Below, piece after piece: positions 16,678 to 60,989 of a stretch of 63,010 nucleotides of DNA. Under the pieces are notes generated by a model. It was not told where the DNA came from. It made no database searches and saw only the letters and a program-made list of their open reading frames with translations. The position numbers and the translations under genes were made by a program. This stretch comes from a virus (lineage: Duplodnaviria; Heunggongvirae; Uroviricota; Caudoviricetes), in IMG/VR virus record IMGVR_UViG_3300028887_000002, positions 276,278 to 339,287 of that record; one strand, written 5' to 3'. Numbering within the stretch: position 1 is the stretch's first letter; each line of letters opens with the position of its first letter.

Positions 16678-18236
16678 AAAAATACTGACGCGGAAACCCA
16701 CGTGTTTCAACAGTGGGGGGGGGGAAGCGTCTCTCAATTTATTAAGTTAATAATATTGTTAATTCTCTCTGTCATTGACGTCTGTCTTGTTTGACCTCGC
16801 AAATATACAACGTCTTTTTGAATTGACAAAATATTTTTTAAAAAATTTTAATAAATATTGAGAAATTTTTCAAATTCCCTTATATTTATATATAGTAAAA
16901 AATTACAGAACTATGTACCTGACGACGACCGTATTGCAGACCCCAAAGAACCACGAGGTTGACCTCGCGGTGCTAAAGGCTCTGTGCTACCAGTCGGCAA
17001 GACTGTACAATGCAAGCCTGTACAACATCCGCCAGCACTACTTCGCCACGACCCGCTACCTGTCGTACAACGACAACTGGCGCATGACGAAGGACAATCT
17101 GAACTATAGACTGCTGATATCCGACTCGGCACAGCAGATAATGCGTATGGCCGACAGGGACATGCAGTCGTTCTTCAAACTCCTCTACCTCAAGTCGCAG
17201 GGGAAGTACTCCGCAAGGGTTAATCTCCCCCGCTACAAGAAGGGTGATGACTGTTCGACCTACGTCGTGTGCGGACGTTCAGCCCGCATCCAGAAAGACG
17301 GCACTGTTAACATAGGCGTGACAAAGGAGTTCCGCGAGAAGTACGGCTACGACAGCAGGTACATCAAGTTCACAATCCCCCGCAACCTCCGTGACGTGAA
17401 GGAGTTCAAGGAGGTTCGCATCAACCCCCAGTACAATGCGACCCAGTTCTGCGTCCAGTTCATCTACGAGTCCGCACAGGCGCCACAGCAGGCATCTGGT
17501 GACGGCTGGATGTCGATTGACCTCGGACTGGACAACCTAATGGCTTGTACGGCCTTTTCTAATGGCGGCTCCCGACAGTTCCTAATTGACGGGAGGAGAC
17601 TAAAACACATTAACCGCTATTACAACAAGGAAATCGCACACCTCAAGGCTGCCCGACCCGACAAGTTCGACCTGTCCAAAAGGATGATAAGGCTTATGAA
17701 CGGACGGAAAAACAGGATTTCGCAGTACTTCGACCGCACGGTGAAGTACGTTGTGGGCGAATGCCTCGCCCTCGGCGTGACCCGTGTTGTCGTGGGGCAT
17801 AACGAGGGGTGGAAGCAGGAGGTCAACCTCAAGGACTTCAACAACCAGAACTTCACGTTTATCCCGCACTACCTGCTGTTGAGGAAACTGCGCTCGAAGT
17901 GCGAGTTCCACGGCATCAAGTTCCTTACGGTCGAGGAGAGTTACACCTCGAAGGCCAGTTGCCTGGATATGGACGACATACCAACTTATACACCGAACGA
18001 CCATGTGAAGTACAAGTTCTCTGGCCGTAGGAAGTATAGGGGACTGTATAAATCAAAGGAGGGCCTGTTGATTAACGCCGACATCAACGGGGCGGTCAAT
18101 ATCCTGCGGAAGTATTTTGTTAATGGCAAGCTGGACTGGATATTCCAGGACAGTGTGAGAGCGCTCGTCAACGCGCCGTGTCCGAGGGTTCATCCCTTCG
18201 GCTCAAGCCCACGCACTTCAGTCGTGGGTGGTTGAC
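16678..18236 (+). mobile_element. Non-autonomous IS200/IS605-family element (tnpB only, IS1341-like)
   Basis: Left-end hairpin GACGC-GGAAA-CCCACG...GTGGG...GGAA-GCGTC; right end AAGCCCACGCACTTCAGTCGTGGGTGGTTGAC; left ~160 bp repeated at 61683-61842. Confidence 0.85.
16913..18235 (+). CDS. tnpB: TnpB RNA-guided endonuclease
   Basis: N-terminal HTH (RLYNASLY), SIDLGLDN, EESYTSK, NADINGAVNI; RuvC-II appears as VVVGHN (no canonical E at that position); GC-rich. Confidence 0.9.
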   Translation: MYLTTTVLQTPKNHEVDLAVLKALCYQSARLYNASLYNIRQHYFATTRYLSYNDNWRMTKDNLNYRLLISDSAQQIMRMADRDMQSFFKLLYLKSQGKYSARVNLPRYKKGDDCSTYVVCGRSARIQKDGTVNIGVTKEFREKYGYDSRYIKFTIPRNLRDVKEFKEVRINPQYNATQFCVQFIYESAQAPQQASGDGWMSIDLGLDNLMACTAFSNGGSRQFLIDGRRLKHINRYYNKEIAHLKAARPDKFDLSKRMIRLMNGRKNRISQYFDRTVKYVVGECLALGVTRVVVGHNEGWKQEVNLKDFNNQNFTFIPHYLLLRKLRSKCEFHGIKFLTVEESYTSKASCLDMDDIPTYTPNDHVKYKFSGRRKYRGLYKSKEGLLINADINGAVNILRKYFVNGKLDWIFQDSVRALVNAPCPRVHPFGSSPRTSVVGG

Positions 18237-18373
18237 CCAGGGATTAGCACATTGTCATAGTACTGATTTCTCGTTACAATGTGATTCACATCAAAACTCT
18301 TGCTTACTGCGTTAGTATACGCAACATCCTCAAGTAATTGGTTGAAATCAACCTTTAATGTAATCTGTCCCAT
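18218..18373 (-). CDS. Small ORF MGQITLKVDF...NVLIPG whose 3' end abuts the IS right end
   Basis: 51 codons directly downstream of cassette promoter 18432-18446; last 5 codons are IS-derived. Confidence 0.5.
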   Translation of the reverse strand: MGQITLKVDFNQLLEDVAYTNAVSKSFDVNHIVTRNQYYDNVLIPGSTTHD

Positions 18374-18464: not shown

Positions 18465-18852
18465 AAAAAACAGGCCTGTGGAACCTGTGTTTATGGTCTT
18501 ATCGCCATATCGGAGACCTTGCGCAAGAAGCCAGTCAACTCTCTACGTCGGGAATGCGTTTTCTACTAAAAGTACGCGGCACTGGCTGTCCCCAACTTAA
18601 GCGTCTTCCTTTTGTTATAATATTTCACATAGCGATTTTTCATCTTTACAGGGCTTAGCACCTTATGTGACCATATCATTCACCCACTGCGTTATCCTTG
18701 CACATTATTGTTTAGTGTCCCAGTCTTTTGAGGTGAAACAAACTCGCAACTGGGTAGGAAAGGGTTTCCGCTGATTTCGGAAGATTAAACACGAGGTTGT
18801 TCAGCCCCGTGCACCACAGAAAAATATCAAAGAACATGTGTGTCATTCATTG
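18465..18852 (-). ncRNA. Stand-alone group-I-intron-like structured RNA, copy 1
   Basis: -7 box at 18859-18866; GTTCTTTGA leader; P3-like TCTTCC/GGAAGA; P4-like AAATCAGCGGAA/ACGCAG; loop TAAACAATAAT shared with copy 2; ACAGG/CCTGT-T6 terminator. Confidence 0.65.
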
Positions 18853-59264: not shown

Positions 59265-59500
59265 AAAAATAACCTGTGAAAGATGCCATCCCTTTAGGGT
59301 GGCATATGAAACAGGTGTAATATTTCTTCCTTTTATTAAATTCATCGGTGCAAAGATATAATGTTTGGTTGGAATCACCAAACATTTTTTTATTTTTTTT
59401 TTCATCCTTGTTTCTCGATGTAGTCCTTCAGTTTCTCCTCGCTTATGACGCCGACAGTCCCGCAGAAGTACCCGCGCGTCCACAGGTGGGGGTAGTTCAT
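59265..59500 (+). mobile_element. 236-bp internally deleted IS200/IS605 element
   Basis: After TTAC: left-end hairpin ACCTGT-GAAAG-ATGCCA..TGGCAT-ATGAA-ACAGGT; tnpA 3' remnant on - (VGVISEEKLKDYIEKQG*, ~59400-59456); right end ...CAGGTGGGGGTAGTTCAT. Confidence 0.7.
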
Positions 59501-59811: not shown

Positions 59812-60393
59812 TTAGTTTGCTTCCAATATTTCTTCCAAAGTTCTCGGAGTATAGTCCATATAGGGTAACATGCAACCCACGTTGAAAGCGTTGAACACAT
59901 CTTCGGCAAGGATACCGTCCTTCTTTGCATATAATTCCTTTGTTCTACGCTTATGTGCTTCATACTCCCAGTAGTCTATGTTCATATGGACATGCCCGTA
60001 GAGATGAATCCATCCTCTAAATAAATTTCTATATGAAAAAATCGGAAAGTGGCTGAGAACGATTGACATATCCTTTCCTAAACTTAACTCCTTGTAGTCT
60101 GCTATTTCCACGAAGCACTTGCGGAACTCCAGGCTCTTGAGGAACTTGTGGTCGTGGTTGCCAACGATGAAGTGCTTGTGTCCGTTAAGCATCTCAAGTA
60201 TGTTGATTGTGGCGGTTGTATTTTTCCACGATATGTCACCGAGGATATATACGTCATCGTCAATGTTCACTGCCTCGTTCCAACGCCTTATGAGTTCGGT
60301 GTCGTGTTTGTCAATGTCAGTAAACGGCCTGTTGTCGAATAACAGGCAATTCTCGTGCCCAAAATGTAAATCCGATATAAAATAGTTTGCCAT
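59812..60393 (-). CDS. Calcineurin-like metallophosphoesterase
   Basis: SDLHFGH, LGD, GNHD, SHFP, HLYGHVH. Confidence 0.9.
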   Translation of the reverse strand: MANYFISDLHFGHENCLLFDNRPFTDIDKHDTELIRRWNEAVNIDDDVYILGDISWKNTTATINILEMLNGHKHFIVGNHDHKFLKSLEFRKCFVEIADYKELSLGKDMSIVLSHFPIFSYRNLFRGWIHLYGHVHMNIDYWEYEAHKRRTKELYAKKDGILAEDVFNAFNVGCMLPYMDYTPRTLEEILEAN

Positions 60394-60421
60394 ATTTAAT
60401 TTTTTATTTGTTTAACATAAT

Positions 60422-60930
60422 AAAAAAGGATGTGTGAATCCTTATAACCACTCTATGTTGCCATAGTCAAACAATGAGTGATGCTGAGACATATTTAATA
60501 CTGAATTATTTCATCAGGCACCATTTTTTAACGTCCCTATATTCTATTGTCTGTTGTGGTCTGTACTGTCTCATTACCATATTGAAATTCTTCGAAGTAA
60601 GTGCTGGCTACGTGTCATCTTTGGATTTGATATTTCCTCACCAGTGAGTCCACCATACACCAATTCCAACTTAGGTATCTCCCGTTCAGTCTCTACACGA
60701 TTATGAGACCCTCGGTGGTGCTCCACCGATATTCTTTCACGGCCTTAAGATGTCCTTAGTATCTCCAGACATCGTCTCATTTTCGCTCGGTATAGTCCTG
60801 GACATTATTGTTTAGTCCATAGCTTTACGTCCTATTACACTAAGGATTTCCACCGAATTTAGGAGATTCTACTATGGGATTTCTCGCCATAGCACACACA
60901 ATATTTTCAAAGAACGTTATGTCTTATTTG
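60422..60930 (-). ncRNA. Stand-alone group-I-intron-like structured RNA, copy 2
   Basis: -7 box 60937-60944; P3 ATCTCCT/GGGAGAT; P4 TCGGTG/TACCGA; P6a GAGAC/GTCTC; R-like GTAGAGACTGAACG; S-like ATGAGACAGTAC; GGAT/ATCC-T6 terminator. Confidence 0.7.
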
Positions 60931-60989
60931 ACGATGCAAAGATAAAAACTATTTTTGAAACTGCCAAATATTTTTTTTTATTTTTTTTT

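What the first reader, a model, noticed from the sequence alone, without database searches (positions are those of the whole stretch)
60422..60930. Exon-less, self-transcribed group-I-intron-like RNA with a broken guanosine-binding site (copy 2)
Seen on the - strand, in order: host -7 box (60937-60944); GTTCTTTGA leader; a P2-like hairpin; P3 5' ATCTCCT (60861-60867); P element AAATTCGGTGGAA; a hairpin closing loop TAAACAATAAT; Q element TACCGAGCG giving a 6-bp P4; P6a GAGAC/GTCTC; GTAGAGACTGAACG; P3 3' GGGAGAT; P8 TTGGAATT/AATTTCAA; S-like ATGAGACAGTAC; more hairpins incl. CTATG-GCAA-CATAG; then a hairpin+T6 terminator. Established: this helix order is the group I catalytic core, where P7 needs G264-C311 (3' strand NAGUCC) to bind guanosine. 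Here the strand is CAGUAC, so that pair is G.A. No U.G P1 is evident and the RNA does not interrupt a gene: both neighbours are intact ORFs. Inference: an intron scaffold repurposed as a free phage ncRNA, e.g. hydrolytic ribozyme, protein/ligand scaffold or defence decoy. GTTCTTTGA resembles boxA-type antitermination leaders of stable-RNA operons.
Basis: partly seen in the sequence, partly recalled or inferred. Interest (0 to 1): 0.88.

Follow-up and report, generated by a model that had tools for sequence, protein, structure and literature searches.

The report
Exon-less tRNA-type group I intron RNA
A 339-kb rumen phage carries a self-splicing-type (group I) RNA that in related phages interrupts tRNA genes, but here has no gene around it, has its own promoter and a damaged active site, so it is either an intron put to a new use or an orphan on its way out.

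Summary
Observation confirmed. Rfam gives only a sub-threshold Intron_gpI match (19.8 bits against a cut-off of 50).

I found 43 related elements in IMG/VR. At least 26 of them are group I introns inside the anticodon loops of jumbo-phage tRNA genes. On five core blocks, 98% of cells pair and 13 of 49 pairs show compensatory change.

Copy 2 is nearest to a tRNA-Met(CAU) intron (95% core identity) and keeps its guide sequence. It has no tRNA exons. It sits between a Bacteroidetes-type promoter with the leader GTTCTTTGA and a weak hairpin-U6 in front of a phosphoesterase gene. That leader also heads the phage's tRNA operon and stands in the leader and spacer of a Bacteroidota rRNA operon.

Copy 2 is the only member with G.A at the guanosine-binding pair. 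Its ortholog L422 has lost the whole 5' strand of P7.

The same exon-less form recurs in L111, L280, L012 and L009. It is absent from some close relatives.

Exapted RNA (about 0.43) and decaying orphan (about 0.38) cannot yet be told apart. Earlier notes of this scan describe similar exon-less group I RNAs in other jumbo phages.

The parts
60937..60968 (-). Bacteroidetes-type promoter (TTTG ... TATCTTTG). The transcription start is inferred near 60928-60931.
   Evidence: Pattern TTTG-N17-23-TAnnTTTG: 18 matches in the window against 3.9 expected. Similar promoters recur across the window.
60904..60915 (-). boxA-like leader GTTCTTTGAAAA
   Evidence: The 9-mer occurs 6 times in the 339-kb genome. 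Three copies lie 21-32 nt behind a promoter: copy 1, copy 2 and the head of the tRNA array. The same sequence stands in a Bacteroidota rrn leader (-100) and its 16S-23S spacer.
60893..60900 (-). Guide-sequence equivalent UGUGUGUG. The last six bases with the next C (GUGUGC) are identical to the guide of the tRNA-Met(CAU) introns L002 and L007.
   Evidence: Flank comparison. The candidate P1 partner GACAU (60919-60923) is weak.
60872..60892 (-). P2 hairpin with a GAAA tetraloop (L2)
   Evidence: Five of six P2 pairs covary. The pairs that close L2 covary across the family (GA/UC, AA/UU, AC/GU, GG/CC; read from the rows printed).
60786..60867 (-). P3 5' strand, J3/4, P4, P5, P5a, P5b with the invariant 11-nt loop (60804-60814), and the P4 3' strand
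   Evidence: Blocks A1 and A2 match at E 8.7e-18 and 2e-10.
60698..60785 (-). P6/P6a/P6b domain (peripheral part unique to this copy)
   Evidence: No other sampled locus shares the insert.
60677..60693 (-). P7 5' strand G(A)GACUG, J7/3, P3 3' strand GGGAGAU
   Evidence: Block A3 matches at E 3.4e-12.
60577..60675 (-). P8 flanked by CCUAAG ... UAUGG (the 11-nt tetraloop-receptor motif)
   Evidence: Sequence. The motif is nearly invariant across the family. Reading it as a receptor rests on established knowledge of the GAAA tetraloop receptor.
60563..60568 (-). P7 3' strand CAGUAC. The A at 60564 replaces the C of the guanosine-binding G-C pair.
   Evidence: Only member of 26 scored with G.A at this pair. 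The same allele stands in an independent RNA-run contig in X10.
60447..60560 (-). P9.0 (ACCAC/GUGGU), P9 (CAGACA/UGUUUG), P9 insert, and P9b with a GCAA loop
   Evidence: The insert is 83-89% identical to the inserts of the tRNA-borne introns L029, L011 and L103.
60422..60446 (-). Tail UAUAAG (G at 60441 stands where omega-G would be) and weak hairpin AAGGAU/AUCCUU plus U6
   Evidence: -4.5 kcal/mol. Homologous hairpins follow L422, L111 and L280.
59812..60393 (-). Phosphoesterase gene with no promoter of its own; probably co-transcribed with the RNA
   Evidence: phrog_547 at E 2.6e-40. The next promoter match downstream is at 59351-59382.
18465..18852 (-). Copy 1: diverged exon-less paralog with the same promoter and leader, no G-C pair in P7 and no P9 domain
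   Evidence: (block A2 at E 4e-4).

Best explanation
Copy 2 is an exon-less, promoter-driven derivative of a group I intron family that normally sits in the anticodon loops of jumbo-phage tRNA genes. Its nearest relative is a tRNA-Met(CAU) intron.

Shown:
- A phage promoter precedes it.
- An rrn-type boxA-like leader follows the promoter.
- A complete group I fold follows the leader: P2 to P9, with an L2 GAAA loop and a receptor motif at P8.
- A weak hairpin-U6 closes it.
- A phosphoesterase gene without a promoter of its own comes next.
- No tRNA halves flank it.
- The guanosine-binding pair is G.A.

Inferred:
- The roughly 500-nt RNA is made as a stable, Rho-protected transcript or mRNA leader and no longer splices.
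- It is kept as an accessory 'RNA moron', a folded scaffold with a free guide sequence that binds an RNA or protein partner rather than catalysing splicing.
- The partner is unknown.
For: Family membership and fold:
- Five core blocks match 42 other elements.
- For at least 26 of them, in-silico splicing gives tRNAs with U at -1 and G at omega. These include Leu-UAA split at U34/A35 and Met-CAU split after U36.
- 98.2% of cells pair, against 34-46% when the partner is shifted. 13 of 49 pairs are compensatory, against 1-4 when shifted.

No exons:
- None of 672 splice combinations gives a tRNA.
- The genome's ten tRNAs lie about 250 kb away and carry no intron of this family.

Made as a stable RNA:
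- The promoter-plus-GTTCTTTGA arrangement is shared only with copy 1 and the tRNA operon.
- The leader matches a Bacteroidota rrn boxA.
- An RNA-run contig with the CAGUAC allele has depth 70, while the flanks have depth 3-5.

The exon-less form recurs:
- L422 is an ortholog with the same leader, hairpin and downstream gene.
- L111 and L280 have the same leader, guide and hairpin but unrelated neighbours and no tRNAs nearby.
- L012 (two copies) and L009 sit between tRNAs.

P7 is damaged in most free-standing copies while the other helices stay paired:
- Copy 2 has G.A; L422 has a 12-nt deletion; L012_1 has G.U; L009 and L012_2 have G.A at the neighbouring pair; copy 1 has no G-C pair.
- 23 tRNA-borne copies could be scored at the guanosine-binding pair. 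22 keep G-C; the other (L003) is poorly aligned there.

Copy 1 differs greatly in sequence yet still folds into P2, P3, P6a and P8.
Against: - No covariation has been shown to arise within the exon-less lineage.
- L422 has uncompensated changes: U.U in P3, U.C in P9.0 and an A.C pair closing L2.
- Peripheral domains are swapped by recombination with tRNA-borne introns. This could keep the core looking fresh without any selection.
- Close relatives lack the elements. L420 and L421 have another gene 10 nt upstream of the same phosphoesterase. L427 and L428 have unrelated sequence behind the copy-1 promoter.
- The RNA evidence comes from assembled contigs, not reads.
- L111 has an intact P7, so the class is not uniformly inactive.
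- No function is demonstrated.
Confidence: 0.43

Rival explanations
1. Orphaned selfish intron in decay. A tRNA-type intron copy came to lie in the untranslated leader of a phage operon. Splicing is not needed there, so lesions accumulate. The RNA is transcribed only because it lies between a promoter and a gene, and it has no function.
For: - The family is a multi-copy intron of tRNA genes, with up to two copies per locus.
- Lesions hit the active site first: copy 2 has G.A and L422 has a 12-nt deletion. L422 also has uncompensated mismatches in P3, P9.0 and L2.
- The element is sporadic among relatives at 92-93% nucleotide identity.
- The phosphoesterase gene has no promoter of its own, so 'own promoter' may simply be the gene's promoter.
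- Broken tRNA contexts exist elsewhere in the family (L013, L035_2).
Against: - Both exons would have to be replaced precisely by a boxA leader and a hairpin, and that arrangement recurs in at least four phage backgrounds with unrelated neighbours.
- Every exon-less copy has GTTCTTTGA just upstream.
- Copy 1 is highly diverged yet its helices still pair.
- The core blocks of copy 2 are about 95% identical to working introns, with no general decay.
Confidence: 0.38
2. Cis-acting leader of the phosphoesterase operon. The folded RNA together with the weak hairpin-U6 sets how much transcription or translation reaches the downstream genes, as an attenuator or a ligand- or protein-sensing leader.
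For: - There is no promoter between the RNA and the ORF at 60393.
- The hairpin is weak and its U-run is only four long in L422.
- The same RNA-gene pairing is found in L422.
- A boxA leader would carry polymerase through.
Against: - L111, L280, L012, L009 and copy 1 sit before unrelated genes or tRNAs.
- L420 and L421 express the same gene without the RNA.
Confidence: 0.08
3. Still an active ribozyme. Either it splices out of mini-exons (GACAU | ... G | GAUUC), or it acts in trans through its guide on CUCAU anticodon loops of tRNA-Met.
For: - The guide GUGUGC is identical to that of the tRNA-Met introns.
- The phage's own tRNA-Met has the cognate loop CUCAUAA.
- GACAU upstream can form a 4-bp P1 with U.G.
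- A G stands at the omega position.
- L111 has an intact P7.
Against: - The guanosine-binding pair is G.A. Established work on Tetrahymena G264-C311 and the Azoarcus base triple (PMC13168695) makes binding of G unlikely.
- The P1 candidate is not conserved and not significant.
- The transcript ends in a U-run, not at omega-G.
Confidence: 0.06
4. ORF-less IStron-like element moved by an IS200/IS605 transposase.
For: - A TnpB gene lies next to copy 1.
- ORF-less IStrons are known (PMC4227781).
Against: - The TnpB gene is on the opposite strand and lies outside the RNA.
- Copy 2 has no IS ends or ORFs.
- The conserved upstream sequence is an 11-nt boxA, not a 4-5-nt target site.
Confidence: 0.02

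Closest known systems
[quoted passage not shown]
   Same: The relatives of copy 2 occupy exactly these sites in phage tRNA genes. They share the core order, a P7 with a bulged A and a G-C pair, a GAAA loop in L2 and a receptor motif at P8. Copy 2 keeps a guide that fits a CAU anticodon loop.
   Different: Copy 2 has no exons, has a promoter and boxA leader in place of the 5' exon, a hairpin-U6 in place of the 3' exon, and G.A at the guanosine site. It is much larger (about 450-500 nt against 205-250) through P5, P6, P8 and P9 inserts. The subgroup (IC3 or other) was not tested.
GIR1 lariat-capping ribozyme
   Same: An RNA descended from a group I intron that no longer splices and does another job.
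   Different: GIR1 lies inside a twin-ribozyme intron before a homing-endonuclease mRNA and has a rebuilt core. Copy 2 keeps the ordinary P2-P9 layout, is transcribed from its own promoter in a phage, and no reaction is known for it.
Clostridioides difficile c-di-GMP-II riboswitch-group I ribozyme in a 5' UTR
   Same: A group I ribozyme in an mRNA leader rather than inside a coding or tRNA sequence.
   Different: That ribozyme is active and its splice-site choice is ligand-controlled. Copy 2 lacks a working guanosine site and no aptamer is evident. This comparison is from my own knowledge and was not tested here.
IStrons, including ORF-less forms (PMC4227781)
   Same: Group I ribozymes found at varied, often intergenic, places.
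   Different: IStrons carry IS200/IS605 ends and splice. Copy 2 has neither IS ends nor exons.
Introns in megaphage tRNA genes (Lak phages, PMC6784885) and group I introns of Jug jumbo phages (PMC12880540)
   Same: Jumbo phages of Bacteroidales with intron-bearing genes. Lak tRNA introns were called enigmatic.
   Different: Those papers describe introns inside genes. Neither paper, in the intron passages I read, describes an exon-less, promoter-driven copy.

Membership tests
Group I intron (Rfam RF00028 and the classical definition) | Core helices P3-P8 in canonical order with P, Q, R and S elements | tested here: met
   Full-length model alignment. Helices pair and covary in the family.
Group I intron (Rfam RF00028 and the classical definition) | Score at or above Rfam's gathering cut-off | tested here: not met
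   19.8 bits against 50. Relatives are also missed at E<=1.
Group I intron (Rfam RF00028 and the classical definition) | G-C pair in P7 that binds guanosine | tested here: not met
   G.A from the A at 60564. Copy 2 is the only member of 26 scored with G.A there.
Group I intron (Rfam RF00028 and the classical definition) | Interrupts a gene whose exons join to a functional product | tested here: not met
   None of 672 splice combinations gives a tRNA. The flanks are a promoter leader and a hairpin-U6, and both neighbours are intact ORFs.
Group I intron (Rfam RF00028 and the classical definition) | U.G pair at the 5' splice site in P1, and a terminal omega-G | tested here: inconclusive
   GACAU/GUGU is possible but weak and not conserved. 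A G at 60441 stands at the homologous place.
Group I intron (Rfam RF00028 and the classical definition) | Self-splicing activity | not testable with these tools
   Needs an in vitro GTP-addition or splicing assay.
Jumbo-phage tRNA anticodon-loop intron family (defined here) | Homology in five core blocks A1-A5 | tested here: met
   nhmmer E-values from 8.7e-18 to 2.7e-4. 95% core identity to L002_1.
Jumbo-phage tRNA anticodon-loop intron family (defined here) | Sits in a tRNA anticodon loop | tested here: not met
boxA-type leader of stable-RNA operons | Sequence equal to the rrn boxA of the host phylum, placed shortly after a promoter | tested here: met
   GTTCTTTGAAAG stands in the leader and spacer of a Bacteroidota rrn operon. 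In the phage it lies 21-32 nt behind the promoter at copy 1, copy 2 and the tRNA operon. A second Bacteroidales genome has a variant, ATCATTGAAAG.
boxA-type leader of stable-RNA operons | Binds NusB/S10 and confers antitermination | not testable with these tools
   Needs biochemistry or reporter assays.
IStron | IS200/IS605 ORFs or ends within the element | tested here: not met
   No ORF of 60 aa or more in copy 2. The TnpB gene near copy 1 is outside the RNA and on the other strand.
GIR1 lariat-capping ribozyme | Lies within a twin-ribozyme intron ahead of a homing-endonuclease gene | tested here: not met
   There is no enclosing intron and no endonuclease gene.

The most novel reading that the evidence does not exclude
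The exon-less RNAs are guide-bearing group I scaffolds that act in trans on tRNA. Through the retained guide GUGUG they dock on the CUCAU anticodon loop of tRNA-Met/Ile2 (host or phage). They then mask it, or in copies with an intact P7 such as L111, cut it or reverse-splice into it. That would be an RNA-only way for a jumbo phage to manipulate the tRNA pool or blunt anticodon-targeting defences.
Probability: 0.06. Interest if true: 0.9.

Novelty: new variant of a known kind. Interest (0 to 1): 0.6.

Why it matters
Group I introns are known as parts of genes. A version that phages transcribe on its own, behind the same anti-termination leader as rRNA and tRNA operons and with the catalytic site disabled, would be a second natural case after GIR1 of an intron fold reused for another purpose. 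It would also be a new class of large phage non-coding RNA.

Even on the ordinary reading, the work exposes a sizeable family of group I introns in jumbo-phage tRNA genes. Rfam's model does not detect them, and a nucleotide search with copy 2 found no match among 50,697 GenBank phage records. The family is abundant in rumen metatranscriptome assemblies. This matters for tRNA annotation in large phages.

Tried and rejected
- Hidden tRNA exons: ARAGORN on the window, on the whole genome and on 672 spliced joins of copy 2 found none.
- A homing-endonuclease ORF inside the element: none.
- IStron: rejected (see the rival explanations).
- Known Rfam family: none above cut-off.
- GenBank phages: no match at blastn sensitivity.
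- Wasted scans:
  - My pattern GTTCTTTGAN{30,60}AATCTYCYNAAAT was mis-specified. It fits copy 1 only. The viral scan and the single metagenome scan returned only chance hits.
Nothing can therefore be said about bacterial genomes.
- Exact 25-mer from copy 1: no hit in IMG/VR.
- Synteny through the phosphoesterase gene in IMG/VR: relatives reach only 52% identity or less, and none carries the element.
- Covariance model with the session tool: not attempted. The shortest useful alignment is 392-396 columns, with a model length well beyond the calibration limit. Covariation was counted by script instead.
- Selection test against synonymous divergence of the adjacent gene (pS 0.60): rejected as confounded. 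The hairpin, spacer and first 32 codons are a recently shared segment, and the peripheral RNA domains are recombinant.
- Metatranscriptome contigs:
  - Most cover only the conserved blocks and belong to relatives.
  - The 'goes back 340' joint in X23 rests on one contig and is not interpretable.

Full report
**1. What is there**

In order:
- A Bacteroidetes-type promoter at 60937-60968. The pattern occurs 18 times in the window against 3.9 expected.
- GTTCTTTGA at 60907-60915.
- A run of helices that Rfam's Intron_gpI model aligns end to end (60561-60919). The score is only 19.8 bits against a gathering score of 50 (E 0.014 in an 801-nt search).
- A hairpin plus U6 ending at 60422.

No ORF of 60 aa or more lies inside. 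The window is the last 63 kb of a 339,287-bp virus record with direct terminal repeats.

**2.

A 20-nt core word from copy 2, and two further words, retrieved IMG/VR loci, mostly from large contigs. Profile searches with five core blocks gave 43 elements.

In most of them the element is flanked by the two halves of a tRNA gene. Joining the flanks in silico gives ARAGORN tRNAs for at least 26 elements, with U before the 5' junction and G at the intron's end. Examples are:
- tRNA-Leu(UAA), split between U34 and A35.
- tRNA-Met(CAU), split after U36.

Alignment of the flanks also points to Arg(UCU) and Lys(UUU) hosts.

On the block alignment, 98.2% of cells pair in the proposed helices, against 34-46% when the 3' partner is shifted. 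13 of 49 pairs show compensatory double changes, against 1-4 when shifted. P7 itself covaries (GACUG/CAGUC against GGCCA/UGGUC).

L2 is a GAAA loop whose closing pairs covary. P8 is flanked by CCUAAG...UAUGG, the classical tetraloop-receptor motif; that identification is from established knowledge, and the sequence is.

So this is a genuine group I intron family of jumbo-phage tRNA genes.
- Rfam does not detect it.
- A blastn search with copy 2 found no match in GenBank phages.
- Four rumen metatranscriptome assemblies hold many contigs over its conserved blocks.
- Two papers I read on large gut phages report introns. Lak phages have 'enigmatic' introns in tRNA genes. Jug phages have group I introns in protein genes.
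- In the passages I read, neither describes this family.

**3. How copy 2 differs**

- *No exons.* None of 672 splice combinations gives a tRNA. ARAGORN finds no tRNA in the window. The genome's ten tRNAs lie about 250 kb away and carry no intron of this family.
- *Nearest relative.* The core is 95% identical to the tRNA-Met(CAU) intron L002_1, and the guide GUGUGC is the same. The phage's own, uninterrupted tRNA-Met has the cognate loop CUCAUAA.
- *Flanks.* Where the 5' exon would be, there is promoter, about 15 nt, then GTTCTTTGAAAA. Where the 3' exon would be, there is a weak hairpin (-4.5 kcal/mol, missed by the terminator scan) followed by U6.
- *Active site.* In P7 the family has 5'-G(A)GACUG / 5'-CAGUCC, the same layout as Tetrahymena C262-G312 and G264-C311. 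Copy 2 has CAGUAC, so the guanosine-binding pair is G.A. It is the only member of 26 scored with G.A there. The allele is not an assembly slip: a 305-nt contig in an independent RNA run (X10) matches 60521-60704 with three differences and carries it.

**4. The leader**

GTTCTTTGA occurs six times in the 339-kb genome. Three copies are inside coding sequence. The other three lie 21-32 nt behind a canonical promoter, at copy 2, at copy 1 and at the head of the tRNA array.

In a Bacteroidota genome the same GTTCTTTGAAAG stands 100 nt before the 16S gene and again in the 16S-23S spacer. Those are the two places where boxA sits in rrn operons. A second Bacteroidales genome has the variant ATCATTGAAAG in its leader. 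The word also occurs in papers on mycoplasma and phytoplasma detection; I did not open them.

The inference is that the phage marks three untranslated transcription units with the host's anti-termination signal. That makes sense for a 500-nt untranslated RNA exposed to Rho.

**5. The exon-less form recurs**

- L111 and L280 come from contigs of 184 kb and 124 kb. They have the same leader, the same guide and a homologous hairpin-U run directly after P9.0. No tRNA lies within 5-9 kb, and their neighbours are unrelated to those of copy 2.
- L012 has two copies, and L009 (the same as L017) has one. They lie between tRNA genes in arrays, each behind GTTCTTTGAAAAA.
- Through the phosphoesterase protein I found L422, a true ortholog. 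It has the same initial transcript, leader and hairpin, and the downstream gene is 92% identical in protein.
- Copy 1 in the same genome has the same promoter and leader. Its sequence is very different, yet it folds into P2, P3, P6a and P8. It has no G-C pair in P7 and no P9 domain.

**6. State of the active site in exon-less copies**

| Copy | P7 state |
|---|---|
| Copy 2 | G.A at the guanosine-binding pair |
| L422 | 12-nt deletion removes the whole P7 5' strand |
| L012_1 | G.U at that pair |
| L009, L012_2 | G.A at the neighbouring 262-312 pair |
| Copy 1 | A-U pairs only |
| L111 | intact (U-A replaces G-C at 262-312, as in the tRNA-borne L277) |

23 tRNA-borne copies could be scored at the guanosine-binding pair. 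22 keep G-C; the other (L003) is poorly aligned there. Loss of catalytic constraint in the exon-less state is thus well supported. It is expected both for a reused scaffold and for a relic.

**7. Function or decay?**

*For retention:*
- The leader, core and hairpin form a repeated cassette in several phage backgrounds.
- Copy 1 keeps paired helices despite its divergence.
- The core of copy 2 is otherwise intact.
- The RNA contig has depth 70 against flanks at 3-5. This is contig-level evidence only.

*For decay:*
- L422 also has U.U in P3, U.C in P9.0 and an A.C pair closing L2.
- The elements are sporadic.
  - L420 and L421 carry the same phosphoesterase with another gene 10 nt upstream. Homology to L422 and to the window breaks 21 nt before the ATG.
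  - In L427 and L428, which are 92% identical to this genome over 1.7 kb, the copy-1 promoter is followed by unrelated sequence from 1 nt after the -7 box.

*A rate test failed.*
- Synonymous sites of the adjacent gene differ by 60%.
- However, the hairpin, spacer and first 32 codons are a recently shared segment.
- The peripheral RNA domains are recombinant. The P9 insert of copy 2 is 83-89% identical to those of three tRNA-borne introns, while its other inserts are unique.

Units bounded by a promoter and a terminator and present in only some relatives are what phage biologists call morons. This fits either an accessory function or a passenger.

**8. Verdict**

*Settled:*
- It is a real, complete group I fold.
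- It belongs to a tRNA-intron family.
- It has no exons.
- It has a promoter and a boxA-like leader.
- Its guanosine site is broken.

*Not settled:* whether it does anything. I put an exapted stable or leader RNA at 0.43, an orphan in decay at 0.38, a cis-regulatory leader at 0.08, a still-active ribozyme at 0.06 and an IStron-like element at 0.02.

Earlier notes of this scan describe exon-less group I RNAs descended from tRNA introns in other jumbo phages. I did not test those. They suggest the phenomenon is wider than this genome.

Noticed in passing
window 16913-18235 (+) and 18112-18236 (-): An IS200/IS605-type TnpB gene (OrfB_IS605 plus Cas12f1-like TNB domains). Its 3' end is GC-rich and gives a sub-threshold HEARO-like match on the opposite strand. 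The gene abuts copy 1 and appears to truncate a 51-aa ORF (18218-18373).
   Followed up: partly
window 18465-18852 (-): Copy 1 is a diverged exon-less paralog with the same promoter and leader. P2, P3, P6a and P8 fold, but there is no G-C pair in P7 and no P9 domain. It ends in its own hairpin-U6. In the 92%-identical relatives L427 and L428 the same promoter is followed by unrelated sequence.
   Followed up: partly
genome C1:87783 (-), outside the window: The phage's array of ten tRNA genes is headed by the same promoter type followed by GTTCTTTGA. Its tRNA-Met(CAU) has no intron and carries the loop CUCAUAA.
   Followed up: partly
L012:1716-1820 and L004:1530-1601: tRNA-like pieces (Rfam tRNA at 25 bits, with a T-arm GGGTTCGATTCCCAC) sit inside the P9 insert of two family members. 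This recalls the 'tRNA within a tRNA intron' noted for Lak phages.
   Followed up: no
L277:2032-2260: A different, small group I intron (Intron_gpI at 46.6 bits) lies in the tRNA region of a 410-kb viral contig.
   Followed up: no
L275:2149-3181: One family member has about 1 kb between its core blocks. The insert may hold a homing-endonuclease gene.
   Followed up: no
window 60893-60900 and 60430-60436 (-): The guide UGUGUG is complementary to CACACA in the loop of the terminal hairpin. L111 has UUGUG and CACAA at the same two places. This could be a leftover P10 or P1 mimic, or chance.
   Followed up: no
window 60804-60814 and 60468-60473 (-): The invariant L5b loop contains AAACAA, which is complementary to the P9 3' strand UUGUUU. 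Copy 1, which lacks P9, has UUUGUUU inside its P5a.
   Followed up: no
L420/L421 against L422 and window 60394-60414: The phosphoesterase gene is a shuffled module. Homology between genomes starts 21 nt before its ATG, and the upstream and downstream neighbours differ.
   Followed up: partly
window, whole: There are 18 promoter matches of the form TTTG-N17-23-TAnnTTTG, almost all on the - strand. This points to a Bacteroidota host.
   Followed up: partly
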